DNA of 64,000 nucleotides from the NCBI GenBank assembly GCA_003455995.1, contig DMPO01000006.1, positions 38,397 through 102,396 of the forward strand, given 5' to 3'. The stretch is from Candidatus Azambacteria bacterium (GTDB lineage Bacteria; Patescibacteriota; Minisyncoccia; UBA10092). Shown piece by piece: positions 27 to 44,172 of the stretch (position 1 is its first letter; the number at the start of each line of letters is the position of its first letter). Under the pieces are notes generated by a model. It ran no database searches and was not told the origin of the DNA. It worked only from the letters and a program-made list of their open reading frames with translations. The position numbers were made by a program, and so were the translations under genes.

Positions 27-1412
27 TTGCCAAAAAAATCACCGATGTTTATTTCTGCAAATAATAAAAAAACCTTTTGGCATTGGTGGTTTTTGGCGGC
101 CGCCATTTATCTGATTTTTGCCGTGGTTGTTACTTGGCGTTATGGCATAAGTTTTCTTATGCCCATGGGCGACGATACGGGTCATCATATCCAATTAGCT
201 AAAAATTTAATTGAATATCGAACTTTTTCTTTGGACGGGCTTGATGGTGCATATTCTGTAATGCCGCCGCAGCCGACAAACTTTTTAACGCCCGGTTACG
301 CATTTTGGTTGGCGCTGATATATCTTATTTTTAAGTCCTTTACGCCGGCGATTTTTATCGGCGCGATGGTTTTTGCCTTTTCAGCGCCTTTAACTTATTT
401 TTTGGCTAAGGAAATTACCGAAAATAACAAAATCGCTTTATGGTCGGCTCTTATCTTTATGATAGAGCCGCTGTCGATTTATCATTCCGGCTTGATGTTT
501 ACCGAGCAATTGTTCGTGCCTATTTTTTTAGCGGCTTGTTATGGTTTTATAAAATACTTAAACATCGGCGACAGAAAGTTTGTTTTTGGATCTTTATTTA
601 TTTTTTCATTGTCAACTCTCATCAGGCCGATTATTTTCTATCTTTTACCCATTTTATCTTTAATAGTTTTTATTAAAGAATCTAAATTTTCCTGGCGTCG
701 CGCCGCAATTTCGGGGATATTATCTTTAATTATCGCCTTTTCATTTGCCGGTGGTTGGCTTATCAGAAACAAAATTGTTTTAAATACCTGGCAAATTTCA
801 AGCAACCAAGGGGCACTTTTGTATGGTTATCATTATGAACTTCTAATGAGAAGTTTAGGACTCAATTCGGAAAGCCCCGATACGGGCAATCTTAATATTT
901 TTTCGGTCGCATATAATAACTTAAAAGGGGAATTTGCAACAGAAAAAATTTTGCAATATCGATGGAGTTATCTAAAACTTCATTTGACCTACATACCCAT
1001 TTTTTTCTTAAATAATGGTTATAGTGAGTTTTTTAGTCGATTAACCAACGCCATTGAACTTGATAAATATTTTAGACATGATTTGGCATTTGCCTTTTTA
1101 CAAGGTAATATTCTTAAAGGTGCACTGATGATTTCCGGCGCCCCAAATGAAATTTTTGTTTTAATTGGCGGAATTTTAATTTGGTTTTTAATATTCTCAC
1201 TGTCCATAGTGGGTTTTTGCGAATTATTTATAAAATTAAAAAGTAATCAAAAAATGATTATAAATATTATTGGCATTATAGTATTGTATTTTGCCGTTAT
1301 CGTTTCGCCGGGGGTAGTGGCGCGATATCGTTTGCCAATAAATCCTTTTGTTTTTATTTTCTTTGTCAGCGGCTTTTATGCTATTAAAGAAAAAATAAAA
1401 TTATGGATATAA
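27..1412 (+). CDS. Multi-pass membrane glycosyltransferase, GT-C fold (GT39/GT83, ArnT/PMT-like)
   Basis: 461 aa with many predicted TM helices. N-terminal region resembles PMT_2/ArnT polyprenyl-phosphate-sugar-dependent transferases. It lies next to a GT2 polyprenyl-P-sugar synthase gene. Confidence 0.55.
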   Translation: MPKKSPMFISANNKKTFWHWWFLAAAIYLIFAVVVTWRYGISFLMPMGDDTGHHIQLAKNLIEYRTFSLDGLDGAYSVMPPQPTNFLTPGYAFWLALIYLIFKSFTPAIFIGAMVFAFSAPLTYFLAKEITENNKIALWSALIFMIEPLSIYHSGLMFTEQLFVPIFLAACYGFIKYLNIGDRKFVFGSLFIFSLSTLIRPIIFYLLPILSLIVFIKESKFSWRRAAISGILSLIIAFSFAGGWLIRNKIVLNTWQISSNQGALLYGYHYELLMRSLGLNSESPDTGNLNIFSVAYNNLKGEFATEKILQYRWSYLKLHLTYIPIFFLNNGYSEFFSRLTNAIELDKYFRHDLAFAFLQGNILKGALMISGAPNEIFVLIGGILIWFLIFSLSIVGFCELFIKLKSNQKMIINIIGIIVLYFAVIVSPGVVARYRLPINPFVFIFFVSGFYAIKEKIKLWI

Positions 1413-2584: not shown

Positions 2585-3314
2585 AGAAAAAACAGTTTCA
2601 ATAGTTTTTGCTACTTATCGTGAAAAAGATTCAATAAGAATGGTTATTGAAAATTTTTTTAATACTGGTTTTGTGGATGAAGTTATAGTTGTTAATAATA
2701 ATGCCGAACCGGGAACGGTTGAAGAAATACAAAAAACCAAGGCTAGAATGGTTTATGAAAAAAGACAAGGATATGGCCATGCCTTCCAACGGGGCATGGA
2801 AGAGGCGAAAGGGGACTATATTTTCCTATGCGAACCGGATGGCACTTACACCGGCAAGGATTTGGAACGGTTTCTGGTCTATGCTCAAGATGGTTTTGAA
2901 GCTGTTTTAGGTTCGCGGACCGGTCAAAGCACGAAAATATCCGGAGCTGATATGGATTTTTTAAGAAAATTTGCCAATGTTTTTGAAGCTAAAACCATTG
3001 AATATTTATTCAATACCAATTCATTATCGGATATCGGATGCACTTATAAACTTTTTACTAAAGCGGGGATTAATAAAATCGCCCCCTTGTGGCGAACCAG
3101 AAACTCTCTTTTTGCCACCGAATTGGTGCTTTTAACCGCTGCCAAGAAAATACATTTCATTGAAATTCCCGTTACATTTAAAAAGCGCGTTGGCACTTCA
3201 ACTTTTGTAAGCACTTTTGCCAAAATGGCTAAGTGGGGTTTAAGAATCTACGCTTTTATTTTTATTTTTTGGTTTCGCTGGATTTTTAGAAAAATCTTTT
3301 CAAAAAACGCATGA
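2577..3314 (+). CDS. GT2 polyprenyl-phosphate sugar synthase (dolichyl-phosphate mannose synthase/ArnC/GtrB-like)
   Basis: N-terminal motifs VSIVFATYRE..EVIVVNNNAEPGT..YGHAFQRG..FLCEPDG are typical of GT2 DPM1-like enzymes. A C-terminal TM helix is present. Confidence 0.75.
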   Translation: MYKEKTVSIVFATYREKDSIRMVIENFFNTGFVDEVIVVNNNAEPGTVEEIQKTKARMVYEKRQGYGHAFQRGMEEAKGDYIFLCEPDGTYTGKDLERFLVYAQDGFEAVLGSRTGQSTKISGADMDFLRKFANVFEAKTIEYLFNTNSLSDIGCTYKLFTKAGINKIAPLWRTRNSLFATELVLLTAAKKIHFIEIPVTFKKRVGTSTFVSTFAKMAKWGLRIYAFIFIFWFRWIFRKIFSKNA

Positions 3315-4219
3315 ATTGTCCCATTTGCGATAATAATGATAGTCGGATAGTAAGATCGTTTTTCCCGAGATTTTATTATTGTCTTAATTGTGAGGGCCAT
3401 TTTCTCAGGGAAGATTCCGCGCCGGAATATGCCGAAGATTATTACGAACTTGAAAGCCGGAACTTGCTATCTAAATCAATCACAAGAGCGATTCGCGCAT
3501 TTTTTTTGCGCGCCAGATTTAAAAAAGTTAAATCGATTTTAAAAAATATTCCAAATAGCGTTGTTCTTGATTATGGCTGCGGTCCGGGAAATTTTGTTAA
3601 GTACGCCCTTAAAAAAAACCTAAAAATATTCGGTTACGAATCTTCAAAATCGGCTGTCCGCCTTGCGAAAGAAAATTCTCTTCCAGTATACGATTCGGTT
3701 GTTATTGCGCAGGGTAAATATGATCTGATTACGTTTTGGGGCAGTTTGGAGCATGCTGATAATCCCAAAGATATCGTTATTAAATGTCGCAATTACTTAA
3801 AAGAAGGAGGTAAGCTTCTTATCGCCCTGCAGAATGCCGATAGTTTTGAGGCGCGGCTGGCTAAGGAAAAATGGTTTCATTATGATTATCCTTTTCATCG
3901 CATCCAATTTACGCCTACGGCGCTTAAGAAAATACTTGAACAAAACGGCTACGAAGTAAGCTCGTTTGACTTTTTCTTTCCTGAATATACCGTATCCGGA
4001 TTAATACAAACATTTTTAAATTTTTTATTTCCCAAGAATGCCTTTTACTACGTTGTAAGCAACAGAAGATTAAGCGCCAGCAGCGCTAAAACAATTTTTA
4101 TCAACCTTTTTTCATTATTATCGCTTCTCGTTTTTTCGCCGATTTTATTATTATTCTTTCTAGTGGCTTTAGTTTTTAAAAAAACAGGAGCCATGGTCGT
4201 CCTTGCAAAAAAGGCGTAA
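3311..4219 (+). CDS. Class I SAM-dependent methyltransferase with N-terminal Cys4 zinc ribbon and C-terminal TM segment
   Basis: CPICDN...CLNCEG zinc ribbon. LDYGCGPGNF is SAM-binding motif I. The C-terminus is hydrophobic. Confidence 0.7.
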   Translation: MNCPICDNNDSRIVRSFFPRFYYCLNCEGHFLREDSAPEYAEDYYELESRNLLSKSITRAIRAFFLRARFKKVKSILKNIPNSVVLDYGCGPGNFVKYALKKNLKIFGYESSKSAVRLAKENSLPVYDSVVIAQGKYDLITFWGSLEHADNPKDIVIKCRNYLKEGGKLLIALQNADSFEARLAKEKWFHYDYPFHRIQFTPTALKKILEQNGYEVSSFDFFFPEYTVSGLIQTFLNFLFPKNAFYYVVSNRRLSASSAKTIFINLFSLLSLLVFSPILLLFFLVALVFKKTGAMVVLAKKA

Positions 4220-4237: not shown

Positions 4238-4891
4238 ATGGCTAAGGAGCTTTATAATAAATATTTTGAGACGCATTTCCCGAAAGTAGAATACCGCGAC
4301 AAAATGTGGCACCCGGTAGTTGAATATTTACAGAAGAAATATGTTCCAAAAAACAGCATAGTGCTGGATTTAGGCGCCGGTTATTGTAATTTTATAAACC
4401 ATATTGTCGCTAAAGAAAAACATGCCAGTGATATTTCGGAAATTATCAAGCAAAATGCCGAGAAAGACGTAATTTGTCATATTCAAGACTGCGCCGAATT
4501 AAGTGATATTTCCGATGAAAAATTTGATATTGTTTTTGAGAGCAACCTTTTGGAACATTTAGATTCCGACCGTATTGAGAAAACACTAAAAGAAATTTTG
4601 AGAGTTTTAAAAAAGGGCGGCCGATTTATAGCCATGCAACCGAATTATAAATACTTTTACGCACATTATTTTGACGATTACACTCATAAGACAATTCTTT
4701 CCCATGTAAGCTTTGAGAATTTATTGAAAAATTACGGATTTGAAATAGAAAATATAGAACCGAAATTTTTACCGGCGACATTCAAACAAAAATTGCCGAA
4801 AATACCATTTTTGGTTAAATTATATCTAAGATCCCCTTGGCGACCGGCAGCCAAGCAAATGCTGGCAGTGGCCAAAAAACCAAATGTATAA
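4238..4891 (+). CDS. Class I SAM-dependent methyltransferase
   Basis: VLDLGAGYCNF is motif I. Length is consistent with Methyltransf_11/12-like proteins. Confidence 0.7.
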   Translation: MAKELYNKYFETHFPKVEYRDKMWHPVVEYLQKKYVPKNSIVLDLGAGYCNFINHIVAKEKHASDISEIIKQNAEKDVICHIQDCAELSDISDEKFDIVFESNLLEHLDSDRIEKTLKEILRVLKKGGRFIAMQPNYKYFYAHYFDDYTHKTILSHVSFENLLKNYGFEIENIEPKFLPATFKQKLPKIPFLVKLYLRSPWRPAAKQMLAVAKKPNV

Positions 4892-6113
4892 AACCAATAC
4901 TCATTGCCGAATGTGCAAAAGCGAAAATTTAAAGTTGTTTTTTGATTTGGGAGAAACGGCTTTGGCCAATTCTTTCCTGAAAAAAGAAGAACTTAACAAC
5001 CCCGAATCCAAGTATCCCTTGAGGGTATTTTTTTGCGAAGATTGCGGTTTAAGCCAGCTCGTGGATGTTGTCGACCCTTCGGTTTTATTCAGAAATTATG
5101 TTTATTTTTCTTCCGAAATGCCGGTTTTACCGGAACATTTTAAAAACTATGCCGAAGAGGCGGTTAATAATTTCGTAAAATCAAAGAACGGTTTGGTTGT
5201 GGAAATCGGCAGTAATGACGGGCTTCTTTTGGGCGCTATTAAAAATTTGGGCGCCAGAGTATTAGGCGTTGACCCTGCCGAAAATATTGCCAAAATTGCT
5301 AATGAAAGAGGGGTGGAAACAATTCCGGATTTTTTCAACGAAAAACTTGCCAAAGAAATCAAAGAAAAATATGGGCCAGCAAAAGTGATGATAGGAAATA
5401 ATGTTGTTGCTCATATTGATAATCATTATGATTTAATCAGCGGCGTCTCGACTCTTCTTGCCGACGGCGGGGTCTTCATGTTTGAAGCGCCGTATCTTGT
5501 GGATATGTTTGAAAATTATACTTTTGACACCATTTATCATGAACATCTTTCTTGTCTTTCGGTTAGGCCGCTTGTGAATCTTTTCAAACAATTTGGCATG
5601 GAACTTTTTGATGTGAAATTATTCCCCGTTCAAGGAAATTCCATAAGAGGATATGCCGGAAAAACGGGACAGCATGCAATTTCAATGAGAATCGGAGAAT
5701 TACTAGAAAAAGAAAAATCAATGGGATTAAATGATATTTCAACCTATTTTAAATTAGTAGACGATGTTGATGAAATGAGAAAAAAAGTTTTGACTATTCT
5801 TAAAGATTTGAAATTGCAAGGCAAGAAGATTTCCGGTTACGGCGCACCGGCTAAGGGCAATACTTTGCTTAGTTATTATGGTATTGGCGCGGATATTTTG
5901 GATTATGTAACCGATGAAACGACAAAAATTAATTTATATACGCCGGGCACTCATATTCCGGTAATAGATATTAAAGATGCCAGGAAAAATCCGCCTGATT
6001 ATTTTTTGCTTTTAGCTTGGAACTATAAGGATGCCATTTTGAAAAAAGAGGAAGACTTTAGGAAAAATGGCGGAAAATTTATCATGCCGGTCGGTAAAGT
6101 GGAGATTTTATAA
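4884..6113 (+). CDS. NDP-hexose C-methyltransferase family protein (TylCIII/TcaB9-like; Methyltransf_13 Zn-ribbon plus Methyltransf_14 C-terminal domain)
   Basis: N-terminal HCRMC...CEDC zinc-binding segment is followed by LFFDLGETALANSF, characteristic of sugar C-/O-methyltransferases of this family. It sits immediately upstream of rfbB. Confidence 0.6.
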   Translation: MYKTNTHCRMCKSENLKLFFDLGETALANSFLKKEELNNPESKYPLRVFFCEDCGLSQLVDVVDPSVLFRNYVYFSSEMPVLPEHFKNYAEEAVNNFVKSKNGLVVEIGSNDGLLLGAIKNLGARVLGVDPAENIAKIANERGVETIPDFFNEKLAKEIKEKYGPAKVMIGNNVVAHIDNHYDLISGVSTLLADGGVFMFEAPYLVDMFENYTFDTIYHEHLSCLSVRPLVNLFKQFGMELFDVKLFPVQGNSIRGYAGKTGQHAISMRIGELLEKEKSMGLNDISTYFKLVDDVDEMRKKVLTILKDLKLQGKKISGYGAPAKGNTLLSYYGIGADILDYVTDETTKINLYTPGTHIPVIDIKDARKNPPDYFLLLAWNYKDAILKKEEDFRKNGGKFIMPVGKVEIL

Positions 6114-6114
6114 T

Positions 6115-7167
6115 ATGCAACTTTCTTTTAAAAATATTTTGGTTTGCGGCGGGAGCGGATTTATCGGTTCAAATTTCATTCGTTATATTTATAACAAATA
6201 TCCCGATTGTAAAATATTTAATTTGGACTTGTTAACCTATGCCGGCAATCCGGCAAATCTTGCCGATATTGAAGAAAAAGAAAACAAGAGGAATCCAGCC
6301 AATCAAAGATGTCATTTTTTCCGCGGCGATATTTGCGATGGCGCTTTGCTTGCGAATATTTTTGAGAAATATAATTTTGACGCTGTTATTAATTTTGCCG
6401 CCGAAAGTCATGTCGATCGTTCTTTCGTGAGTGTTTTTGATTTTATAAGAACGAATGTTGAGGGCGTCAGATCTCTTATAGAAGCTACCAGGAAATATAA
6501 AGTTTCCAGATTTGTCCAAATTTCCACGGATGAAATTTACGGATCCGTGCCAGAAGGTTTTTCAACTGAAGACGCGCCTCTTAAACCGTCTAACCCGTAT
6601 GCCGCTTCCAAGGCCGCTGCTGATTTATTGGTTCAGTCATACATAAAGACGCATCAGGTTCCGGCGCTCATTGTTCGGGGTTCCAATAATTACGGCCCGT
6701 TTCAATATCCTGAAAAATTAATTCCTCTGGCGATATCAAATATTATTGAAGGCATTAAGGTGCCGATTCACGGTTCTGGGGAACACCGGCGCACATGGAT
6801 CCATGTAAATGATTTTTGCTCTGCTATTGACACCGCGCTTCATAAGGCGCCGGATTACAGTATCTATAACGCTTCTGGAGAAGAAAAAACCAATTTGGAA
6901 ATTCTTGAAATTATAGCTCGGCATCTTAAAAATTCAGAGGATTATAAAGAGCACACCAAAGACAGGCCCGGAGCGGATTTGCGTTATGCCCCGAATTCGT
7001 CAAAATTGAAATCAGAATTGGGCTGGCTTCCGCAATATCAAATAGAAAGCAGCATCGGGGAAGTCGTAAATTGGTATTTTAATAATCAAGATTGGTGGAA
7101 AAAAATTAAAAATTCGGAAGCTTTTCAATCTCATTATCAAAAACAATCTAAAGCGGAATATTATTGA
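6115..7167 (+). CDS. rfbB: dTDP-glucose 4,6-dehydratase
   Basis: MQLSFKNILVCGGSGFIGSNF Rossmann motif, DLLTYAGN, YAASKAAAD (YxxxK). The ORF track starts at 6067, but the ATG at 6115 directly follows the upstream stop and gives a canonical N-terminus. Confidence 0.85.
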   Translation: MQLSFKNILVCGGSGFIGSNFIRYIYNKYPDCKIFNLDLLTYAGNPANLADIEEKENKRNPANQRCHFFRGDICDGALLANIFEKYNFDAVINFAAESHVDRSFVSVFDFIRTNVEGVRSLIEATRKYKVSRFVQISTDEIYGSVPEGFSTEDAPLKPSNPYAASKAAADLLVQSYIKTHQVPALIVRGSNNYGPFQYPEKLIPLAISNIIEGIKVPIHGSGEHRRTWIHVNDFCSAIDTALHKAPDYSIYNASGEEKTNLEILEIIARHLKNSEDYKEHTKDRPGADLRYAPNSSKLKSELGWLPQYQIESSIGEVVNWYFNNQDWWKKIKNSEAFQSHYQKQSKAEYY

Positions 7168-8219
7168 TTATGGATATTAAAGAAAAAATAAATAAAATTC
7201 TAGTTACTGGCGGAGCCGGATATATTGGGGCGGTTCTGGTGCCGAAATTATTGAAAAAAGGCTATAAAGTCAGGGTTTTGGATAAAATGATTTTTGGTAA
7301 CGAGCCGATTAAAGAATTCAAAAATAAAATTGAATTGGTTGTTGGCGATTCCAGGCACGCCGGGCCGGAAATAATGGATGGGATTGACGCTGTGATTCAT
7401 TTAGCCGGATTCTCAACCGATCCGACTTCGCAATACGATCCTCGCCTTACCGATACGGTAAATCATATCGCCACGGAGCACTTAGCCAAATTGGCTCGGT
7501 CTCAAGGAATTAAAAGATTCGTTTACGCCTCTAGCTGTTCGGTTTATTTTACTTTAAACACTCCTTTGGAACCTCCCCTCTATAAAGAAGAGGATCCGAT
7601 CAATCCTATTTCTGCCTATGCTTTGAGCAAACGCTGTTCGGAACAAATTTTGTATGGGATGATAAATGATGATTTCCAGCCAACAATGTTTCGTAAAGGG
7701 ACGCTTTATGGCTGGTCGCCGAGAATGCGCTATGACTTGGTTTTCAATGCGTTTGTTAAAGACGCCTTTCATAAAAAACTCTTGACCGTTGACGCCGGCG
7801 GAGAAATTTGGCGGCCAATGATAGACATCCAAGATGCGACAGATACTTACATAAATGCCATAGAACTGCCGATTGAAAAGATCGGCGGTAAAATATTTAA
7901 TGTTGCCCATCAAAATTGGAGCATCGGCAATCTTGCCCGTGAAATCCAGAAAATTTTGAAAGAGAAAAAGGGTATTGATATTGCTTTGGATGTCAAGCCG
8001 ATAAGTTTGACAAGAAATTACAAGGCGGATACCCAAGCGTTTAATGAGGCCTTTAATTTTAAGCCGAGCCGTTCGTTTGAAGAAGCGGTTTTTGAAATAT
8101 GGGACCATTTGGAAAACGACTCGAATCACGATTCTAACCATGCGCGGCACTACGGCGATAAATGGTACAAACAATATTTTGAAACCGAAGAAGGTAAGGA
8201 ATTTAGGCGGCATGCGTAA
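7164..8219 (+). CDS. NAD-dependent epimerase/dehydratase (extended SDR family), sugar-nucleotide modifying
   Basis: ILVTGGAGYIG Rossmann motif and YALSK catalytic YxxxK. Substrate not assignable from sequence. Confidence 0.7.
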   Translation: MIMDIKEKINKILVTGGAGYIGAVLVPKLLKKGYKVRVLDKMIFGNEPIKEFKNKIELVVGDSRHAGPEIMDGIDAVIHLAGFSTDPTSQYDPRLTDTVNHIATEHLAKLARSQGIKRFVYASSCSVYFTLNTPLEPPLYKEEDPINPISAYALSKRCSEQILYGMINDDFQPTMFRKGTLYGWSPRMRYDLVFNAFVKDAFHKKLLTVDAGGEIWRPMIDIQDATDTYINAIELPIEKIGGKIFNVAHQNWSIGNLAREIQKILKEKKGIDIALDVKPISLTRNYKADTQAFNEAFNFKPSRSFEEAVFEIWDHLENDSNHDSNHARHYGDKWYKQYFETEEGKEFRRHA

Positions 8220-9072
8220 AGTTTTGATTATCGGCGCCAATGGCCAGTTGGCTTTTGATTTAATTAAAATTTTTGGCGATAGTTATGAAATTATAAAATC
8301 TGTTCGCAGTGATTTTGATGTTGCCGATAAAATGGCGGCAGAAAATTTTATAAAAAATTGCGCTCCGGATGTCATAATAAATACCGCTGCCTACCACAAA
8401 ACCGAGGAATGCGAACTAAATCCCGAAAAAAGTTTTGCCGTTAACGCCATAGGCGCTTTTAATGTTGCAAAGGTGGCAAAAGAAATCGGCGCCAAGGTAA
8501 TTTTCATAAGCACGGATTATGTTTTTGACGGCACGAAAGAATATTTTGTGGAATCCGATATTCCGAATCCTCTTAATGTCTATGGAGTGTCAAAATTGGC
8601 GGGGGAAAATCTAATAAAAATAGCCAATGAGGATTATTATATTATCAGGACAAGCTGGTTGTTTGGAATTCATAAATCTGGTAAGGGCAATAATTTTGTT
8701 ACTTTAATGCTTGAAAAAGAGAAAAACGGAGAAAACATAAAAGTTGTGGATGACCAGTTCGGTTCGCCGACATATACTTATGATTTGGCGTTAAAAATAA
8801 AAGAATTGGTTGATAAAAATGTTTTACCAGGAATGTACCATATAACAAATTCCGGTTCGTGTTCCTGGCATGAATTTACCCAAAAAATATTTGAATTATC
8901 AAATCTGAAGCCGAATCTTGAACAAGTTAAATCAGCAGACGGCCCTTCAAAAATAAAAAGACCGAAGTATTCAGTTTTGATAAGTGAAAATATGAAAAAA
9001 CAGGGGATTGAAAGTTTGAGACCATGGCAGGAGGCACTGGGCGATTTTATGTTAGAATATAATAAGAAATAA
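8212..9072 (+). CDS. rfbD: dTDP-4-dehydrorhamnose reductase
   Basis: MRKVLIIGANGQLAFDL, STDYVFDG and YGVSK motifs are typical of RmlD. Start moved to the internal ATG at 8212, which overlaps the upstream stop by 8 nt. Confidence 0.8.
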   Translation: MRKVLIIGANGQLAFDLIKIFGDSYEIIKSVRSDFDVADKMAAENFIKNCAPDVIINTAAYHKTEECELNPEKSFAVNAIGAFNVAKVAKEIGAKVIFISTDYVFDGTKEYFVESDIPNPLNVYGVSKLAGENLIKIANEDYYIIRTSWLFGIHKSGKGNNFVTLMLEKEKNGENIKVVDDQFGSPTYTYDLALKIKELVDKNVLPGMYHITNSGSCSWHEFTQKIFELSNLKPNLEQVKSADGPSKIKRPKYSVLISENMKKQGIESLRPWQEALGDFMLEYNKK

Positions 9073-9074
9073 AT

Positions 9075-9464
9075 ATGCCTCAATTTTACGAATACAGAAC
9101 TCATTCTGACAACCGCCGAAGTGGTTCTTACGATATTATCCCCGGTATAGAGGGCGACTTTAATTTCACCAAGCATCCGGCCAGTATAATTCCGGAAGAA
9201 TTGCATATGCACAAAAATCAGACTGATTATTTTATCGTGGTTTCCGGTAAAGTGCTGTTTAGGCTTGTTTCCGATGATGGTGAAGAAGAAAAATTTATAA
9301 TGACAGATAAAGATAATAAAACTTTAATTATTCAACCGGGAATCTGGCATGGTTACGTGGCGCTTGAACCGTCATGCATGGCTTTTTATTTAAGCCATAA
9401 GTTTGATTCTTCCGACGAGTTCAGAAAAAAAACCGACCCGTCAGAATGGAAATTGTCAAAATGA
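9075..9464 (+). CDS. Small cupin-fold sugar-nucleotide epimerase/isomerase (RmlC/FdtA/WxcM-C-like)
   Basis: 129 aa with beta-rich cupin-like composition. HxH-containing segments (HMHKN, WHGY). Positioned between rfbD and the next transferase. Confidence 0.45.
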   Translation: MPQFYEYRTHSDNRRSGSYDIIPGIEGDFNFTKHPASIIPEELHMHKNQTDYFIVVSGKVLFRLVSDDGEEEKFIMTDKDNKTLIIQPGIWHGYVALEPSCMAFYLSHKFDSSDEFRKKTDPSEWKLSK

Positions 9465-11035
9465 TGATAGAAAAATTAAAAGAACATAAAATAGAAATTT
9501 TGTGTCTAGCCGTTATTTTATTGTTGGCTAGTTTTTTTTATTTTTATAATATCACCCAAAAAGGATTTTTTGACCATGACGAAGCTTGGTTTTCTTTGAC
9601 CGGCAATACTTACGCCGCCGCCCCAAAGATTTTAATAAACCATATTTTACATCCGCAAATAAGCGTTGAAGACCTTATTGCGCAATATATACCCGGCCAT
9701 ATCTTGTTTGGCACCTCTTTCAGACCATTTTTTATTTTTGTGAATGCGCTGGGGATATCAATTTTTGGCTACCATGATTATTCTATCTTTATACTCAATA
9801 GTATTATCGGACTTGTTTCTCTTTTGGTTTTGTATTATCTGGCGAAATCAATAACAAAAAACAACATTCAAGCGCTATTAGCCGCGTTTTTATTGGCGAT
9901 TTCAGGATATCAGATTTTTTTCGCAAGAAGCGGCCTTGCTCAAGTATTGGTTGGTTTTTTGTTAATTTTGGGCGCGATATTTTACGTCAAAACTCTGAAT
10001 GTCCCCGCTGGTTCTGGTCAGGAAAACTATAAAAATCTTTTATGGGCGGGATTTTTTTGGGGCATAATGTCCGTTTCCCACTACAGTATTATTGTAATTT
10101 TATTGTTGATTCTGGTTTTTGAAATTGCATTCACTCGCTTTTATCTTAAGCAAAAAATATCAGTTGCCGTTAAGCGGCTTTTGTGTCTCTTTTTGCCGAT
10201 AGCGCTGATGCTATTAGGGATGCAGGCAATCTCTTTTTTGCGAAATTACGCCCTTGACGAAATAGGGTATCCCGGAAAACCCATGCTTTATTTTGAAGAA
10301 TTTTTTTATCATTTTAATTCAGTAAGTGGCACGGGGTTTAGCTTTAAAAGCGTCGATTTAATTTTTTATGTTAAATTATTGCGCGACCTCAATGGCTGGC
10401 TCTACACACTGTTATTTTTAATCAGCCCGATTATTTTCTTTTATAAGAGATGGTATAAAAATCCTTCGCTGTTTTTTGTTTTTTTTATCGCTTGGGGATT
10501 TTTTTCCAGTTTCAGCATTATTGCGTTTAAAGGTACTAGAAATTTGGCCTTGATAGACGTTCTTATAAGTTTTATTTCGGCTTTGGTTTTGTATGAGTTA
10601 TTTAAATTTTATCAAACCAGATATTATCGGATTTTAATCATAGTTTTCGTTGTGGGTCTCTTAGTCAGCCAGTTGCGGATTGATTGGCAAATCATCAATT
10701 TAAAAAGCGGCTATAAAGAAGTGGCGCGATATATTACGGAAAATAATATACCGACCGAGGATGTTTACGGCGAAAATTGGCCGATACTAGCTTTTTATTT
10801 AAATAAAAAAGTCCAAATTCTTGATAGAAATCCGCGCATAGCATATTACGCATTTGATTGGCTTGTGAAAAGTGAAAAAGAAAAGGAATTTTTTTACGAC
10901 CTTCAGCGCAGGGGAAAAGTTATAGCGACGTTCGATAATCCGCCTGCGAATACATCAGCCGTGCTCGGCGAAAACGTTATTGTGCCTAAAGAAGATTTTA
11001 ACAAGATAAAGATTTATAAAGTGGTGCAATACTAA
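9446..11035 (+). CDS. Multi-pass membrane glycosyltransferase, GT-C fold (ArnT/PMT-like)
   Basis: 529 aa with about 12 TM helices. N-terminal DHDEAWF region and loop organisation resemble GT39/GT83 enzymes. Confidence 0.5.
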   Translation: MEIVKMMIEKLKEHKIEILCLAVILLLASFFYFYNITQKGFFDHDEAWFSLTGNTYAAAPKILINHILHPQISVEDLIAQYIPGHILFGTSFRPFFIFVNALGISIFGYHDYSIFILNSIIGLVSLLVLYYLAKSITKNNIQALLAAFLLAISGYQIFFARSGLAQVLVGFLLILGAIFYVKTLNVPAGSGQENYKNLLWAGFFWGIMSVSHYSIIVILLLILVFEIAFTRFYLKQKISVAVKRLLCLFLPIALMLLGMQAISFLRNYALDEIGYPGKPMLYFEEFFYHFNSVSGTGFSFKSVDLIFYVKLLRDLNGWLYTLLFLISPIIFFYKRWYKNPSLFFVFFIAWGFFSSFSIIAFKGTRNLALIDVLISFISALVLYELFKFYQTRYYRILIIVFVVGLLVSQLRIDWQIINLKSGYKEVARYITENNIPTEDVYGENWPILAFYLNKKVQILDRNPRIAYYAFDWLVKSEKEKEFFYDLQRRGKVIATFDNPPANTSAVLGENVIVPKEDFNKIKIYKVVQY

Positions 11036-16213: not shown

Positions 16214-17580
16214 ATAAAAATAAACGGATTATTTTAATTTTTTTTATCGCCGTTTTGTCGGGGATTTTTTGGAATCAAAAAATGTTCGGTCAGTCGATTA
16301 GTTCCGATCAGCTAGGCTACGACGGTATTGCCATGGATATATTGAACAATGGGCAATTTACTGATTATGGGCAGCAAACATTCAGAGAACCTGGTTATTC
16401 TTTGTTTTTAGCTTTAATTTACAAAATTTTTGGTCACAATTATGATGCCGTCAGATTTATCCAGATTATTCTTTTTGGATTATTAGCCGTTATTATTTAT
16501 CTTCTGGCCAAAGATGTCTTTGGCCAGAAGATTGCGATTTTTTCAAGTTTAGGCACAGCGCTTTTTTACGGCCTTGCCAATCAGGCCGGTTTAATTATGA
16601 CCGAACTTTTATTCGCATTTCTAATTTGTCTTTTCATATTTTTCGCTTATAAGACATCCGCGGAGAACGGCAATAAATGGCTGATGTTTTCCGCGCTGGT
16701 TTTAGGGGTCGCGACTCTGGTTCGGGGCGTGGCCGAGTTTTTCTTCTTTTTTGCGATAGTTAATTTTTTCATCATTTTTAGAAGAAAAATTTCATATAAA
16801 AAGATTTTTGCCAAAATTATAATTTTCACGGTTTGTTTTTTTGTCGTTTTAACGCCATGGCTCGTCAAAAATAAATTTCGGAACGGCATTTCCGTTTCGC
16901 CGCTGATCGGCCATTTTCTGCTGCTGCAGACCGAACGAATGAAGGCGCTATACCCCCGCTACGCCGGCCATTTTGCGGGGTATTTACTAGGTTATTATAC
17001 CGCGGAACAATTGGGAATTTACGGTGGCTCGATCGACGATAAATATATTTCCCATTTTGAAGAGCCGATTCAGTTAAGAACTGAAGAATTTATTGCCGCC
17101 GGTTATGATTATGAAGATATCAGTAATATTTTTACCAAAGAAGCTTTGCCTAAAATCGCCAGGCATCCGATACAATTTTTATCCGTGTCGGTATTGAATT
17201 TCGTCAATTTTAATAGTCCGATTTTAATGCGCGGTCCGCTGTGGCAGAACGCGGCCGATCTTTATCCCCAATTCGCCGACGGCCGCCATCCGGAGATCCC
17301 CAGTTATCTTAAATTGATCATTGTTTTAACTCCGCGCCTGTTGTGGTTTTTATTATTCTTTTTCGTGATAAAGGCGGTAATAAAAAACATTTGCAATTGG
17401 AATAAAATTAGCTGGATCATTTTGATAATAGCTTATTTCAATATTATGTACGGCGTTTCTTCCGGCCTTAATCGTTACGCCTTGCCGATTTATCCTTTTT
17501 ATGTTATTCTGGCGGTTATTGGAATTTCAATCTTGTGGCAAAAAATCAAAGAAAAAAAATCGCTTTTATCACGGGAATAA
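16210..17580 (+). CDS. Membrane glycosyltransferase, GT-C fold (ArnT/GT83 or GT39-like)
   Basis: The segment [36 protein letters not shown] is characteristic of ArnT/PMT_2 family N-termini. Confidence 0.6.
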
Positions 17581-18518
17581 CCGGCCAAGACGGCTCGTAT
17601 TTAGCTGAACTTTTGTTGAAAAAAAAATATGAAGTTCACGGTTTAATCCGCCGTTCCAGCGTTTTTAACGCACAGAGAATAAATCATCTTGAATTATTCC
17701 TGCACTACGGCGATCTGGCGGATTCAGGTTCCTTGGAGGCCGTTTTATCCAAAGTTAAGCCGGATGAAATTTATAATTTAGCCGCTCAATCTCATGTTCA
17801 AATCAGTTTTGAAATTCCCGAGTATACCGCCGATGTTACGGGACTTGGGGTTTTGAGATTGCTTGAAGCGATGCGGAGGCACTGTCCAAGAGCCAAATTT
17901 TATCAAGCGTCATCGTCGGAAATGTTTGGCGCCGTTAAAGAAACGCCGCAAAATGAAAACACGCCTTTTAACGCCCAAAGCCCGTATGGCATTGCCAAGG
18001 TTTTCGCCCATGAGTCGGTTGGCTGCTACCGCGACGCCTACGGTTTGTTTGCCTGCTGCGGGGTTTCATTTAACCACGAAAGTCCGCGGCGTGGAGAGAA
18101 TTTTGTGACGCGAAAAATCACTAAAAGCATCGCCGGAATAAAAGCTGGGATTCAAGATGAAATTTTTTTGGGGAACTTGGATGCCAAACGCGACTGGGGT
18201 TTCGCGCCCGAATTCGCGGAAGCGATGTGGCTGATGCTCCAGCAGGAAAAACCGGATGATTTTGTTATCGCTACCGGCGAAGTCCATACAGTCAGAGAGT
18301 TTGTTAAAGCCGCTTTTAACTGCGCCGGAATCAAGAATTGGAAAAAATATATTGAAATAGATCCGCGGTTTTATCGTCCGAACGAAGTTAATGTCTTACA
18401 GGGGGACGCCTCAAAAGCCAGAAAAATTTTGGGCTGGAAGCCGCGAGTTACTTTTAAAGAATTGGTCGAAATAATGATGAAGGAAGAATTAAAAAATGAA
18501 AATCTGTTATCTGGTTGA
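17535..18518 (+). CDS. gmd: GDP-mannose 4,6-dehydratase
   Basis: [20 protein letters not shown] and the downstream SDR motifs are diagnostic of GMD. It overlaps the upstream gene by 46 nt across an A-rich tract. Confidence 0.85.
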
Positions 18519-20281: not shown

Positions 20282-20737
20282 TTGATGAAGTTGATGAAAA
20301 AGAAAGCAAATGAAAGCGTAATAGGGTATGCCTATGTTTGCGCCGATTTATTGCATGCCGGTCACCTTGATCATTTGGAGTTCTGTAAAAAATTTTGCGA
20401 TAAATTGATAGTGGGGGTTCTTACCGATAATGCGGTAATGGAAAAAAAGCCAAGACCAATTTTTGGTTTTGAAGAACGATTGCGGCTGGTTCAGGCCTTG
20501 AAGTGCGTGGATATTGCCGTACCTCAAGAAACCTACTCGCCGCTTAATAACGCGCCCGTTATGGCGGATATTTTATTTGAAAGCGCCGATCATGGAGAAG
20601 GGGCGCTTGAAGAAGCGAAACGGGTTATGAGGGATATAGGCAAAAAGGTAATTGTTGACATATTTCGCCCTCGTCACAATAGACGACCGTCAAGCACCGC
20701 GATTAAGACCAAAATCAAAAAAGAGTGGCAAAAATAA
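20282..20737 (+). CDS. Cytidylyltransferase-like nucleotidyltransferase (glycerol-3-phosphate cytidylyltransferase TagD / RfaE domain II family)
   Basis: GYAYVCADLLHAGHLDHL carries the (T/H)xGH nucleotidyltransferase motif. 151 aa is the typical size. Confidence 0.65.
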   Translation: MMKLMKKKANESVIGYAYVCADLLHAGHLDHLEFCKKFCDKLIVGVLTDNAVMEKKPRPIFGFEERLRLVQALKCVDIAVPQETYSPLNNAPVMADILFESADHGEGALEEAKRVMRDIGKKVIVDIFRPRHNRRPSSTAIKTKIKKEWQK

Positions 20738-20756
20738 ATAATGGAGGTTTTGTTAG

Positions 20757-27416: not shown

Positions 27417-28131
27417 GCTGGCGGAATTTATTTTCCATTTTCTCCCAGTCGGAAGGAATGTTGATGTCTTCATCGTAAAAATCGCTGACAATATAGGGCT
27501 CTTGCTTCTCGCCGCCGAAATAGCAGGGATTTTTTCCGTACAAAATTTTTGGCTTCAAAACAAAAACCAGATCATTTTTGACATAATATTTTGGCAGGAG
27601 CTGGCGGCGCGCCGGAGCGTATTTTACATTCTGGCCTATGGCGTTTAACAGTTCATAACTGTTGCCCCTTTTTACAGGCTGGACAATCCAATAAGGATGA
27701 TGATGGGCGGCCGATAATTCGGAAAGAGGGATCACCACATCTGGGTCTTTTTTCAAAAACAGTTCTATCGCCTCGTCAACCTGTTTAACGTTTCTTAAAG
27801 AATTGGGAGGCATCAGCAAGACGATGGCGTCGGTTTTATAATTTTCATATTTTTTCAGCCATTCTATGGCGTGCCTTAACACCGGCTCCATTTGCGTCGC
27901 GCTCCCGGCTAATTTTTTGGGGCGCAAAAAGGGCGTTTCGGCGCCGTATTTTTTTGCCACTTTGGCTATTTCGGGGCTATCGGTGGAAACAATGGTCCGG
28001 TTTATAAGAGGGCTTTTCAGAGCCGTCTCAATAGCCCAGGCAATCAACGGTTTACCGCAGAAATTTCTTATATTTTTTCCGGGAACCCCTTTTGAATCGC
28101 CCCGGGCAGGCACAATCGCCACGATTTTCAT
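27394..28131 (-). CDS. Acylneuraminate-type cytidylyltransferase (CMP-nonulosonic acid synthetase, NeuA/PseF/LegF family)
   Basis: MKIVAIVPARGDSKGVPGKNIRNFCGKPLIAWAIETA is the canonical CTP_transf_3 N-terminus. Confidence 0.8.
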   Translation of the reverse strand: MKIVAIVPARGDSKGVPGKNIRNFCGKPLIAWAIETALKSPLINRTIVSTDSPEIAKVAKKYGAETPFLRPKKLAGSATQMEPVLRHAIEWLKKYENYKTDAIVLLMPPNSLRNVKQVDEAIELFLKKDPDVVIPLSELSAAHHHPYWIVQPVKRGNSYELLNAIGQNVKYAPARRQLLPKYYVKNDLVFVLKPKILYGKNPCYFGGEKQEPYIVSDFYDEDINIPSDWEKMENKFRQLKKGMIK

Positions 28132-28158
28132 AATTTATGAAATAACATAAAATTAAAA

Positions 28159-28187
28159 ATCCCGCAACGAACGCGGGATTGTTTTTT
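28159..28187 (-). terminator. Hairpin terminator between B12-rSAM gene and CMP-sugar synthetase gene
   Basis: ATCCCGC-AACGAAC-GCGGGAT stem-loop flanked by A/T runs on both strands. Confidence 0.6.
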
Positions 28188-29847: not shown

Positions 29848-29983
29848 AACTCTCCTCCGTTTTATTGTTAGATGTCAAAGACCGCTTTAATTGACGGAAA
29901 CGGTATCATAAAATTAAATCTTTGACAAGGCGATTATTTTATGGTAATTTTCAGTGTCAAAATTTCCCGAACTTTAACAACAA

Positions 29984-30014: not shown

Positions 30015-30032
30015 AAAATTAGGAGGTTAAAA

Positions 30033-32836: not shown

Positions 32837-32840
32837 AGAT

Positions 32841-34155: not shown

Positions 34156-34169
34156 GAGAAGGAGGGCAT

Positions 34170-42532: not shown

Positions 42533-42563
42533 TTTTGTTTACTATAAACATATTGCGATTACC

Positions 42564-43281: not shown

Positions 43282-44172
43282 ATGAGATTATCGATAAAAA
43301 AATTAGTTATTCCGCTTGCCGGTTTTGGCATGCGGTTTTTGCCGGTCTCTAAAAACTATCCGAAGGAGATGATCAACTTGGTTGACAGGCCGATCGTACA
43401 ATACTTGGTTCAGGAGGCATGCGAAAGCGGCATTCGCGAAGTTATTTTTGTGGTGAATGGCGGTAAAGATATTATCAAACAATATTTTTCGTCCTACCAA
43501 TACTCGCGCCAGAAAAAGGCCTGCCGGGTCTCGCCAATCGCTTGCGAGAATTTAAAAGAACTTGAGAGCTTGCTTCGCGTTATACGTTTTAGGATCATCA
43601 AAAAAAATATGACGCTCGGCGACGGCCATTCAATTCTATGCGCGGAATCGTATCTTGTCCGCGAAAAGGCGTTCGCGGTTACTATGGGAGATCTGCTCGG
43701 CCTTGGTCCAAAGCCGTTCTTAAGCCAGCTTGCCGAACAATACGCTTTAACCGGCGCGCCGATGGTCTCCGTTGAAAGAGTGCCGAAAGAGGCCGTTTCG
43801 CGCTTTGGGATTATCGCGCCCGCCGAATCGCGCGCCGGATTGCATCGCGTGCTCGATGTGGTGGAGAAACCAAGGCCGGAAATCGCTCCCAGCAATTTGG
43901 CGCTCACCGGAAAATATATTCTGACTCCGGCAATCTTTCCCTATCTCAAGCGCGCCTATCGGGAAAAAACCGATAATGAAGTCCGTCTGGCCACGGCCTT
44001 GAAATTTTACGCCGCCGATTACCCGCTCTTCGCCTACGAATGCGAGGGAAAAATCCAAGACACCGGAAACAAATTGGATTTGCTGAAAGCGACGGTAAAT
44101 TTCGGTCTGACCCACAAAAATTTCGGCGCCGAATTTAAAAAATTTTTAAAATCTCTCCCGCTGGAGAATTAG
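43282..44172 (+). CDS. galU: UTP--glucose-1-phosphate uridylyltransferase
   Basis: KLVIPLAGFGMRFLPVSKNYPKEM..VDRPIVQYLVQEA and VVEKPRPEIAPSNLALTGKYIL match GalU family signatures. Confidence 0.8.
   Translation: MRLSIKKLVIPLAGFGMRFLPVSKNYPKEMINLVDRPIVQYLVQEACESGIREVIFVVNGGKDIIKQYFSSYQYSRQKKACRVSPIACENLKELESLLRVIRFRIIKKNMTLGDGHSILCAESYLVREKAFAVTMGDLLGLGPKPFLSQLAEQYALTGAPMVSVERVPKEAVSRFGIIAPAESRAGLHRVLDVVEKPRPEIAPSNLALTGKYILTPAIFPYLKRAYREKTDNEVRLATALKFYAADYPLFAYECEGKIQDTGNKLDLLKATVNFGLTHKNFGAEFKKFLKSLPLEN

What the first reader, a model, noticed from the sequence alone, without database searches (positions are those of the whole stretch)
4884..9464. Likely pathway to a C-methylated dTDP-6-deoxyhexose (rfbB plus TylCIII-like C-methyltransferase plus cupin epimerase plus rfbD), with no rmlA in the window
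The gene order is C-methyltransferase, RfbB, SDR epimerase/dehydratase, RfbD, small cupin. This mirrors antibiotic deoxysugar pathways in which TDP-4-keto-6-deoxyglucose is C-methylated before epimerisation and reduction, as in mycarose, evalose or virenose-type sugars. A 3-C-methyl-6-deoxy-L-hexose in a cell-surface glycan would be unusual outside actinomycete natural products and Coxiella LPS. No glucose-1-phosphate thymidylyltransferase is visible. Only galU at 43282 is present, so the nucleotide carrier is uncertain.
Basis: inference. Interest (0 to 1): 0.5.

Follow-up and report, generated by a model that had tools for sequence, protein, structure and literature searches.

The report
Branched methyl-deoxysugar operon in CPR bacterium
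A tightly packed set of genes in an uncultivated groundwater bacterium (Candidatus Azambacteria) very probably makes a nucleotide-activated 6-deoxy sugar with an extra carbon-linked methyl branch for its cell-surface glycan. The chemistry is a known kind, but two of the parts are unusual.

Summary
Window 4884-9464 holds five co-directional, abutting or overlapping genes:
- a TylC3/TcaB9-type sugar C-methyltransferase
- a dTDP-glucose 4,6-dehydratase (RfbB)
- a GalE/Cj1427-like NAD SDR
- a true RmlD 4-ketoreductase
- a 129-aa cupin

No rmlA and no canonical rmlC occur in the 64 kb. The only glucose-1-phosphate nucleotidyltransferase is a GalU-type enzyme at 43282.

The window comes from a Candidate Phyla Radiation bacterium (Azambacteria). 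The cassette sits in a glycan locus of at least 44 kb.

Synteny across about 19 non-redundant related loci shows a conserved core: class-I methyltransferase, C-methyltransferase, [RfbB and/or SDR], RmlD, cupin. The cupin stays linked to the C-methyltransferase even at 30-38% identity.

The cupin is neither a canonical RmlC nor a canonical FdtA. Its closest solved fold is the C-terminal cupin domain of CapF; CapF epimerises C3 and reduces C4 of a 4-keto sugar. The cupin keeps a classic His/His/Asp/His cupin motif.

Best reading (about 0.7): a pathway to an NDP-(most likely dTDP-)3-C-methyl-6-deoxyhexose, probably O-methylated further, like nogalose or vinelose. The exact stereochemistry, the carrier nucleotide and the role of the extra SDR remain inferred.

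C-methyltransferase homologues are abundant in metagenomes, so genomically this is not rare. I class it as a new variant of a known kind, of moderate interest.

The parts
3311..4219 (+). Class I SAM methyltransferase (302 aa). It is the conserved upstream partner of the C-methyltransferase and a candidate sugar O-methyltransferase.
   Evidence: Matches PF13489, 78.7 bits. A homologue lies immediately upstream of the C-MT in L005, L006, L010, L013, L015, L020, L022, L025, L028 and L034. No informative solved homologue was found. The function is inferred.
4238..4891 (+). Second class I SAM methyltransferase (217 aa). It overlaps the C-MT start by 8 nt and is a candidate O-methyltransferase.
   Evidence: Matches PF08241 and PF13489. 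It is present next to the cassette in L017, L018, L025 and L012. The function is inferred.
4884..6113 (+). NDP-4-keto-hexose C-methyltransferase of the TylC3/TcaB9/MtmC family (409 aa).
   Evidence: Matches PF08421, PF13489 and PF08484. PDB hits: MtmC 7e-100, KijD1 5.5e-78, TcaB9 9e-77. Conserved residues are Cys8/11/51/54 and Y72, H177, Y218, E220, H221, which correspond to KijD1 C15/18/56/59 and Y78, H183, Y224, E226, H227.
6115..7167 (+). dTDP-glucose 4,6-dehydratase (RfbB/RmlB, 350 aa).
   Evidence: TIGR01181 scores 393 bits against a cut-off of 365. The best PDB hit is 6bi4 at 8e-97, and every hit at E<=1e-40 is deposited as a dTDP-glucose 4,6-dehydratase. The T-D-E and YxxxK motifs are visible in the sequence.
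7170..8219 (+). Extended SDR (349 aa), a nucleotide-sugar C4 oxidoreductase that is not a dehydratase. It is either a 4-epimerase of the finished sugar or a Cj1427-like C4 dehydrogenase.
8212..9072 (+). dTDP-4-dehydrorhamnose reductase-type 4-ketoreductase (RmlD, 286 aa).
   Evidence: TIGR01214 scores 300 bits against a cut-off of 224. PDB hits: 3sc6 at 1.6e-62 and 1vl0 at 1.9e-59.
9075..9464 (+). Small cupin (129 aa), a probable epimerase of the NDP-4-keto sugar. It belongs to a distinct family lying between the RmlC, FdtA and CapF C-terminal cupins.
9446..11035 (+). GT-C (PMT_2) membrane glycosyltransferase. It overlaps the cupin stop by 19 nt and is a candidate transferase for the product, or for the glycan that carries it.
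   Evidence: Matches PF13231, 36 bits. A homologue directly follows the cupin in L006, L010, L015, L017, L018/19, L020 and L025. The role is inferred.
43282..44172 (+). GalU-type UTP-glucose-1-phosphate uridylyltransferase. It is the only glucose-1-P nucleotidyltransferase in the window and is context, not part of the cassette.
   Evidence: TIGR01099 scores 217 bits, below the cut-off of 327. PDB UGPases hit at 9e-54 and no RmlA structure reaches E<=1e-5.
17535..18518 (+). [quoted passage not shown] It is context: a second source of an NDP-4-keto-6-deoxyhexose in the same locus.
   Evidence: TIGR01472 scores 479 bits against a cut-off of 415.

Best explanation
The five genes, together with the two class-I methyltransferases just upstream, form one operon segment. 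It builds a nucleotide-activated, C-methyl-branched 6-deoxyhexose for the cell-surface glycan of a CPR (Azambacteria) bacterium.

Proposed route:
1. RfbB converts dTDP-glucose to dTDP-4-keto-6-deoxy-D-glucose. This is shown at the level of family membership.
2. The TylC3/TcaB9-type enzyme deprotonates the carbon next to the 4-keto group, most likely C3, and transfers a methyl group from SAM. The family and its catalytic residues are shown; the regiochemistry is inferred from its closest solved relatives.
3. The small cupin epimerises a remaining acidic centre. C5 is the only one left if C3 is already quaternary. This step is inferred.
4. RmlD reduces the 4-keto group with NAD(P)H. The family is shown; the substrate is inferred.

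The product would be a 3-C-methyl-6-deoxyhexose of the 3-C-methyl-rhamnose/talose type, as in nogalose, vinelose, evalose or virenose.

The neighbouring class-I methyltransferases probably add O-methyl groups. The GT-C enzyme that overlaps the cupin gene probably takes part in transfer.

The extra NAD-type SDR most likely either interconverts C4 epimers of the finished sugar (like Tle/WbiB) or supplies a 4-keto sugar by plain C4 oxidation (like Cj1427).

The thymidylyltransferase is presumably encoded elsewhere in the genome.
For: - Family assignments above curated cut-offs for RfbB and RmlD and strong Pfam matches for the C-MT.
- C-MT best hits are the three solved sugar 3-C-methyltransferases, with the zinc site and catalytic residues intact.
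- Gene packing is operon-like: gaps of 1-2 nt or overlaps of 8-19 nt.
- The cassette recurs in Azambacteria, other Parcubacteria/Paceibacterota, a Saccharibacteria MAG and an 'Elusimicrobia' MAG.
- Minimal versions with only C-MT, RfbB, RmlD and cupin exist (L017, L034, L039). That is exactly the four activities the pathway needs.
- The cupin stays adjacent to a C-MT down to 30-38% identity (L042, L043, L046-49, L057-59).
- In L043 the C-MT, cupin and RmlD-like genes lie 4-5 kb from an RmlA-like NTP_transferase and an RfbB-like gene. A separate genuine FdtA is also present there, so this cupin type is not the ketoisomerase.
- The cupin model matches the CapF cupin best by two methods. CapF as a whole epimerises C3 and reduces C4 of a 4-keto-6-deoxy sugar (PMC3699295).
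- RfbB is closest to dTDP-specific dehydratases.
- The surrounding 44 kb is a glycan locus containing GT2/GT4/GT-C enzymes, Wzx, Wzy_C and an initiating Bac_transf.
Against: - There is no biochemical evidence and no glycan composition for any of these uncultivated organisms.
- No rmlA lies in the window or within the fetched flanks (up to 10 kb) of about 19 close loci, so the carrier nucleotide is unproven.
- The cupin fails the RmlC threshold. It lacks the RmlC C-terminal segment, and it has Phe at the position where, in my by-eye comparison with RmlC, the catalytic Tyr would fall. That position is Tyr or Phe across the family. Its epimerase activity and target carbon are therefore conjecture.
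- The cupin keeps the FdtA-type His-x-His, which would also fit a ketoisomerase.
- About half of the related cassettes lack RfbB and carry only the SDR. The 6-deoxy route may therefore not be the ancestral or sole role of the core.
- C5-methylating members of this C-MT family (NovU type; from my own knowledge) could not be compared.
Confidence: 0.7

Rival explanations
1. Dehydratase-independent core. The conserved unit is C-MT, Cj1427-like SDR, RmlD-like reductase and cupin. The SDR oxidises C4 of an NDP-hexose without removing the 6-OH. The C-MT methylates C3, the cupin epimerises and the reductase closes the cycle, giving a 3-C-methyl-hexose that is not a 6-deoxy sugar. In this window RfbB adds a parallel 6-deoxy branch, so two related branched sugars are made.
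For: - Between the C-MT and RmlD, related loci carry RfbB only (L017, L034, L039), the SDR only (L005, L011/24, L020, L022/23, L027, L035/36, L038, L013/31) or both. This is the pattern expected of alternative suppliers of the keto sugar.
- No other dehydratase lies in the fetched flanks (up to 10 kb) of the SDR-only loci.
- Cj1427 works in an oxidase, cupin epimerase, C4-reductase pathway (PMC10680097).
Against: - The SDR-only genomes may encode rfbB elsewhere; this was not testable.
- Net C4 oxidation needs an electron acceptor, as Cj1427 needs alpha-ketoglutarate, and nothing here indicates one.
Confidence: 0.15
2. Ordinary dTDP-L-rhamnose or 6-deoxy-L-talose synthesis. RfbB, a minimal RmlC-like cupin and RmlD make the usual sugar, and the SDR acts as a 4-epimerase. 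The C-methyltransferase serves another substrate, or only a minor branch.
For: - RfbB and RmlD are canonical.
- There is no other RmlC in the window, so the cupin would be the only candidate epimerase for rhamnose.
- dTDP-L-rhamnose 4-epimerases of the SDR class are known in 6-deoxy-sugar loci (PMC11549994).
Against: - The cupin family is tied to the C-MT far more tightly than to RfbB, down to about 30% identity.
- The family is small, with 349 cluster representatives among 1.84 billion, and it is not the widespread RmlC.
- The C-MT start overlaps the preceding gene, and its stop is 1 nt from the rfbB start.
Confidence: 0.1
3. The cupin is an FdtA/QdtA-like 3,4-ketoisomerase that yields a 3-keto-6-deoxyhexose. 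The C-MT then methylates a carbon flanking the 3-keto group (C2 or C4), and an SDR reduces C3.
For: - The cupin passes Pfam's FdtA threshold.
- It aligns its H44-x-H46-K47 with the His-x-His-Lys motif of QdtA, E 6e-4. That these are the catalytic histidines of FdtA/QdtA is from my own knowledge.
Against: - No aminotransferase or 3-ketoreductase accompanies the cassette.
- In L043 this cupin type co-occurs with a separate, strong FdtA (119 bits).
- The solved C-MT relatives all act next to a 4-keto group.
Confidence: 0.05

Closest known systems
Actinomycete branched deoxysugar pathways that retain the 2-OH: L-nogalose (SnogF/SnogG2/SnogC), D-evalose (AviG1), and the mycarose enzymes TylC3/EryBIII/MtmC. 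The pathway details are from my own knowledge; the MtmC, KijD1 and TcaB9 structures were matched here.
   Same: - A dTDP-glucose 4,6-dehydratase, a TylC3-family C-methyltransferase, a cupin epimerase and a 4-ketoreductase.
- Additional methyltransferases nearby, as for the tri-O-methylated nogalose.
- The C-MT is 42.7% identical to MtmC with all catalytic residues conserved.
   Different: - The host is a CPR bacterium, and the genes sit in a surface-glycan locus rather than a polyketide cluster.
- There are no 2,3-dehydratase or 3-ketoreductase genes.
- The epimerase is a 129-aa cupin of a separate family instead of an RmlC-family enzyme.
- An extra Cj1427/GalE-like SDR is present.
- No rmlA is linked.
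Virenose (6-deoxy-3-C-methyl-gulose) biosynthesis in the Coxiella burnetii O-antigen (in-silico model, PMC3539893).
   Same: - A TylCIII-like C-methyltransferase placed in a surface-polysaccharide locus and acting on an NDP-4-keto-6-deoxyhexose.
- The carrier nucleotide is likewise unresolved (dTDP versus GDP).
- A gmd is present in the same locus, as in this window.
   Different: - The Coxiella model uses gmd and a GMER-type epimerase/reductase, with no RmlD and no small cupin.
- Here the dehydratase next to the C-MT is of the dTDP type.
CapF (Cap5F/WbjC/FnlB type) of UDP-L-FucNAc synthesis.
   Same: - CapF is an SDR 4-reductase joined to a cupin; the enzyme epimerises C3 and then reduces C4 (PMC3699295).
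- 30 of 50 broader family members hit PF14667.
   Different: - There are two separate genes rather than a fusion.
- No CapF-like fusions appear among the best 150 family representatives.
- Sequence identity is only about 20%.
- The reductase is a true RmlD.
- The substrates are probably dTDP sugars without an N-acetyl group.
Campylobacter jejuni capsular heptose modification: Cj1427 C4-dehydrogenase, Cj1430 cupin epimerase, Cj1428 C4-reductase (PMC10680097).
   Same: The logic is SDR oxidase, cupin epimerase, SDR reductase. The window's extra SDR has Cj1427 as its best solved relative.
   Different: - The substrates there are GDP-heptoses, there is no C-methyltransferase, and the cupins are RmlC-like and about 180 aa long.
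- The similarity of the SDR to Cj1427 is modest and equals its similarity to 4-epimerases.

Membership tests
TylC3/TcaB9/MtmC sugar C-methyltransferases (PF08421 + class I MT + PF08484) | Three-domain architecture: an N-terminal zinc ribbon, a class I SAM-binding domain and a C-terminal Methyltransf_14 domain. | tested here: met
   PF08421 covers residues 8-69 (84 bits), PF13489 covers 91-241, and PF08484 covers 248-403 (168 bits). The protein aligns end to end with MtmC, KijD1 and TcaB9.
TylC3/TcaB9/MtmC sugar C-methyltransferases (PF08421 + class I MT + PF08484) | Four zinc-binding cysteines and the active-site Tyr, His and Tyr-x-Glu-His residues. In TcaB9 these are Y76, H181, Y222, E224 and H225; that numbering is from my own knowledge and is offset by 2 from KijD1. 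| tested here: met
   C8, C11, C51 and C54, and Y72, H177, Y218, E220 and H221, align with KijD1 C15/18/56/59 and Y78, H183, Y224, E226, H227.
TylC3/TcaB9/MtmC sugar C-methyltransferases (PF08421 + class I MT + PF08484) | SAM-dependent C-methylation at C3 of an NDP-4-keto sugar. | not testable with these tools
   This needs an enzyme assay. C5-methylating relatives (NovU type) could not be compared because no sequences were available here.
dTDP-glucose 4,6-dehydratase (RmlB, TIGR01181) | A score above the curated equivalog cut-off, plus the catalytic T-D-E and YxxxK motifs. | tested here: met
   Scores 393.4 bits against 365.1. 'STDEIYG' and 'YAASK' are present in the sequence. The best PDB hit is 6bi4 at 8e-97. 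Specificity for dTDP over UDP was not tested.
dTDP-4-dehydrorhamnose reductase (RmlD, TIGR01214) | A score above the curated equivalog cut-off and full-length similarity to solved RmlD structures. | tested here: met
   Scores 300 bits against 224. Hits 3sc6 at 1.6e-62 over residues 3-282.
dTDP-4-dehydrorhamnose 3,5-epimerase (RmlC, PF00908) | A score above Pfam's gathering threshold, a length of about 180 aa with the C-terminal segment carrying the Asp of the His-Asp dyad, and a catalytic Tyr. | tested here: not met
   Scores 20.4 bits against a cut-off of 27. The protein ends at residue 129. The position I equate with the catalytic Tyr, by eye against RmlC, is F110 here and Tyr or Phe across the family. 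tblastn with Salmonella RmlC finds nothing in the window. Some distant family members do pass PF00908.
FdtA/QdtA 3,4-ketoisomerases (PF05523) | A score above the gathering threshold and the His-x-His pair, which is catalytic in FdtA/QdtA (from my own knowledge). | tested here: met
   Scores 36.5 bits against a cut-off of 23. H44-x-H46-K47 aligns with the HSHK of QdtA.
FdtA/QdtA 3,4-ketoisomerases (PF05523) | Genomic partnership with a 3-aminotransferase or another enzyme that uses a 3-keto sugar, and orthology to characterised FdtA. | tested here: not met
CapF C-terminal / WbuC-type cupins | Sequence membership (TIGR04366 or PF14667) and a cupin His/His/acid/His motif. | tested here: inconclusive
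   TIGR04366 scores 33.8 bits, below its cut-off of 42. The window protein itself does not hit PF14667, but 30 of 50 family members do. H44, H46, D51 and H92 are invariant. CapF is the top structural hit. Metal binding was not tested.
Cj1427-type nucleotide-sugar C4-dehydrogenases | Net C4 oxidation with a tightly bound nicotinamide cofactor that is recycled by alpha-ketoglutarate. | not testable with these tools

The most novel reading that the evidence does not exclude
CPR/Patescibacteria carry a previously undescribed four-enzyme module: a TylC3-type C-methyltransferase, a Cj1427-like C4-dehydrogenase, an RmlD-like reductase and a small, possibly metal-dependent, CapF-like cupin. This module would install a C-methyl branch on nucleotide sugars without needing a 4,6-dehydratase. 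RfbB would be an optional add-on that yields the 6-deoxy version. These ultra-small bacteria would then coat themselves with heavily methylated branched sugars of the nogalose or vinelose type.
Probability: 0.2. Interest if true: 0.6.

Novelty: new variant of a known kind. Interest (0 to 1): 0.4.

Why it matters
C-methyl-branched sugars are well known in antibiotics, but only a handful of surface glycans are known to carry them: Coxiella virenose (PMC3539893) and, from my own knowledge, Azotobacter vinelose and Helicobacter 3-C-methyl-mannose.

This locus, and the thousands of homologous methyltransferases in metagenomes, suggest that branched and heavily methylated sugars may be a common surface feature of uncultivated CPR bacteria. 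The envelope chemistry of these bacteria is essentially unknown, and it matters for their epibiotic lifestyle.

The locus also points to two enzymes worth characterising:
- a small cupin family that always travels with the C-methyltransferase
- an SDR that alternates with the 4,6-dehydratase

Both could be useful for glyco-engineering of branched sugars. None of this overturns current knowledge of deoxysugar chemistry.

Tried and rejected
- Whole-genome search for rmlA: not possible.
- 'Split CapF' at sequence level: a profile search of 1.84 billion representatives found no roughly 370-aa SDR-cupin fusions among the best 150. The CapF relation therefore rests on fold and on PF14667 hits of relatives only.
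- PDB search for the 302-aa methyltransferase: only generic class I methyltransferases.
- Literature: the TcaB9, KijD1 and MtmC papers and the two Cj1427 papers are not held. One search was wasted because 'EvaC' matched 'evacuation'. No paper was found on C-methyl sugars in CPR bacteria.
- GalU at 43282 as a disguised RmlA: rejected. It matches UGPases at 9e-54, and no RmlA structure appears at E<=1e-5.
- The SDR as a second dehydratase: rejected. It has S-C-S where dehydratases have T-D-E.
- A GMER-like Cys/His epimerase reading of the SDR's 'SSC' motif: considered, but the Cys is not at the GMER position and the GDP-fucose synthase model does not match.

Full report
**Source and context**

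The C-methyltransferase sequence of the window occurs, identical, on NCBI MAG contigs DOQJ01000014.1 (GCA_003512535.1) and MEYU01000015.1 (GCA_001775875.1). It also occurs on Rifle groundwater metagenome contigs, the longest of which is reported as 585 kb. The cupin is identical to a protein of 'Candidatus Azambacteria bacterium GW2011_GWE1_42_9'. The window therefore comes from a Candidate Phyla Radiation (Parcubacteria) bacterium.

From position 27 to about 27,400 every gene is on the + strand. The first 44 kb form one large glycan locus:
- GT2, GT4 and GT-C/PMT_2 glycosyltransferases
- at least six class-I methyltransferases
- gmd
- a Wzx-like flippase
- a Wzy_C protein
- an initiating Bac_transf
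- a polyprenyl-phosphate-hexose-synthase-like GT2
- GalU

**The observation**

- The C-methyltransferase (4884-6113) has the PF08421 zinc ribbon, a class-I methyltransferase domain and the PF08484 C-terminal domain.
- RfbB most probably starts at 6115 and passes the TIGR01181 equivalog cut-off (393 against 365 bits).
- The SDR runs from 7170 to 8219.
- RmlD most probably starts at 8212 and passes TIGR01214 (300 against 224 bits).
- The cupin (9075-9464) passes Pfam's FdtA threshold (36.5 against 23) but not RmlC's (20.4 against 27).

Gaps between the genes are 1-2 nt, or the genes overlap by 8-19 nt. The preceding methyltransferase and the following GT-C gene also overlap the cassette.

No rmlA and no canonical rmlC is present in the 64 kb. 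This rests on family scans of nearly all ORFs of 100 aa or more (the four between 58.8 and 64.0 kb were not scanned) and on tblastn of the whole window with recalled E. coli RmlA and Salmonella RmlC sequences. The gene at 43282 is a GalU-type uridylyltransferase.

**The methyltransferase**

Its best solved relatives are MtmC (D-mycarose 3-C-methyltransferase, E 7e-100, 42.7% identity), KijD1 and TcaB9. The four zinc cysteines are conserved. So are the residues that align with KijD1 Y78, H183, Y224, E226 and H227; from my own knowledge these correspond to TcaB9 Y76, H181, Y222, E224 and H225.

C3 regiochemistry is the reading by homology. A NovU-like C5 methylation cannot be excluded, because no such sequence was available for comparison.

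**The cupin**

This is the least canonical part.

- By sequence, the profile of its family hits QdtA (1.5e-4) and several RmlC structures (2.5e-4 to 4e-4) about equally.
- H44-x-H46-K47 aligns with the HSHK of QdtA. The second half resembles RmlC ('IPPGxxHGxxALE').
- The protein stops where RmlC still has about 35 more residues. By my by-eye comparison with RmlC, the position of the catalytic Tyr is F110 here, and Tyr or Phe across the family.
- CapF is an N-terminal SDR joined to a C-terminal cupin; the enzyme epimerises C3 and then reduces C4 of a 4-keto-6-deoxy sugar (PMC3699295).
- H44, H46, D51 and H92 are invariant even among relatives at 24-36% identity. They form the classical cupin metal motif HxH(x4)D(x6)G ... 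PGxxH, so metal dependence is possible but untested.
- Of 50 broader family members, 30 hit PF00908, 30 hit PF14667 and 29 hit PF05523. I recall PF14667 as the CapF C-terminal domain; I did not verify this here.
- The family is small: 349 cluster representatives at E<=1e-3 among 1.84 billion, almost all of them stand-alone proteins of 110-190 aa.

The accurate description, though, is a separate family of nucleotide-sugar cupins lying between RmlC, FdtA and the CapF C-terminal domain.

**Synteny**

The cupin profile retrieved 5 loci from species-representative genomes and 50 from metagenomes. I mapped these by tblastn with the window's proteins.

Among about 19 non-redundant close loci (284 kb), the order is: class-I methyltransferase, C-MT, X, RmlD, cupin, often followed by the GT-C gene. 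X varies:
- RfbB plus SDR: this window, L006, L009, L010, L015, L018/19, L025, L028
- RfbB alone: L017, L034, L039
- SDR alone: L005, L011/24, L020, L022/23, L027, L035/36, L038, L013/31

None of these loci has an rmlA.

At 30-38% cupin identity the cupin is still next to a C-MT (L042, L043, L046-49, L057-59).

In L043 the C-MT and cupin are followed by a separate genuine FdtA (119 bits), a 2OG oxygenase, an RmlD-like gene, a methyltransferase, an RmlA-like NTP_transferase and an RfbB-like gene. This shows two things: this cupin is not the ketoisomerase, and the pair can sit in a dTDP context.

The RfbB-only cassettes contain exactly the four activities that the proposed pathway needs.

**The extra SDR**

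It has the GxxGxxG motif, a 'VLD' NAD-type signature and YxxxK. It has S-C-S where dehydratases have T-D-E, so it is not a dehydratase.

Two roles fit:
- a C4 epimerase of the finished 6-deoxy sugar, as Tle/WbiB do for dTDP-L-rhamnose (PMC11549994)
- a Cj1427-like supplier of a 4-keto sugar (PMC10680097)

The second role would explain why the SDR and RfbB alternate between cassettes. I cannot decide between the two.

**Carrier nucleotide**

RfbB is closest to dTDP-specific dehydratases (6bi4, 8e-97). The Mimivirus R141 enzyme (6vlo), which I recall as UDP-glucose specific, scores only 6.5e-56. dTDP is therefore the most likely carrier, with rmlA encoded elsewhere in the genome.

The same locus also encodes GalU and gmd. 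A sister Azambacteria genome has CDP-glucose genes (rfbF/G/H) 7-10 kb from its cassette. Other carriers therefore cannot be excluded.

**Conclusion**

It differs from those routes in four ways:
- the host is a CPR bacterium
- the epimerase is a distinct small cupin
- an extra C4-oxidoreductase SDR is present
- no thymidylyltransferase is linked

The exact sugar is inferred, not shown: the branch position, whether it is D or L, the C4 configuration and any O-methylation.

Because the chemistry is known and the methyltransferase family is abundant in environmental genomes, I rate the interest as moderate. I class the finding as a new variant of a known kind.

Noticed in passing
window 27394-35042: This stretch has a higher GC content (0.45-0.48, against 0.35-0.39 around it). 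It encodes a PseF-like cytidylyltransferase, a B12-binding radical-SAM methyltransferase (28186-29847, minus strand), an HIBADH-like dehydrogenase, a transketolase-like protein (30908-32836), an SDR and a NeuB/PseI-like synthase (34086-35042). It may be a second unusual sugar pathway, possibly acquired horizontally.
   Followed up: no
window 44804-46333 (-): A second B12-binding radical-SAM enzyme lies in another GC-rich stretch (0.48-0.50), next to a 662-aa protein with a peptidoglycan-binding domain (46407-48395).
   Followed up: no
window 17535-18518: A GDP-mannose 4,6-dehydratase (TIGR01472, 479 bits) has no recognisable fcl/rmd partner next to it. It could feed a GDP-6-deoxy sugar, or even the C-methyltransferase, as has been proposed for Coxiella virenose.
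   Followed up: partly
window 20282-21992: A small cytidylyltransferase-family protein is followed by a GlpT/PgtP-like MFS transporter. This suggests a CDP-glycerol-type decoration built from imported glycerol-3-phosphate.
   Followed up: no
window 27-1412, 9446-11035, 41396-42532 (-), 42495-44786: Three GT-C/PMT_2-type membrane glycosyltransferases occur together with an AglJ/Dpm1-like GT2, GalU and a NUDIX protein. This points to glycosylation on the outer face of the membrane from polyprenyl-phosphate sugars.
   Followed up: no
L010 17377-20346 (-): The sister genome Azambacteria GW2011_GWA2_42_9 carries CDP-glucose pathway genes 7-10 kb from its copy of the cassette: glucose-1-P cytidylyltransferase, CDP-glucose 4,6-dehydratase and an RfbH-like gene. 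It also carries a second RmlD.
   Followed up: partly
L043 8156-16238: A marine metagenome locus has this gene order: PhyH-like oxygenase, C-MT, small cupin (passes PF00908), genuine FdtA, 2OG oxygenase, RmlD-like, methyltransferase, two unknown genes, RmlA-like, RfbB-like. It is a richer branched-sugar cluster with both cupin types.
   Followed up: partly
L054, L055, L056 (around the cupin match): A triad of gmd (50% identical to the window's gmd), a cupin (33%) and a short RmlD-like gene, with no C-methyltransferase. It is a GDP-linked relative of the module.
   Followed up: no
P0311: A 1,346-aa protein gives 11 partial matches to the cupin profile (best stretch covers profile positions 9-46). 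It may be a repeat protein built from the N-terminal part of this cupin.
   Followed up: no
window 8100-8219 (SDR C-terminus): The SDR has a C-terminal extension of about 40 residues that is rich in His, Asp and Asn ('NDSNHDSNHARHYGDKWYKQYFETEEGKEFRRHA'). It is partly conserved in the family (Y328, D330 and W332 are invariant or nearly so) and is modelled as helices. Its function is unknown.
   Followed up: no
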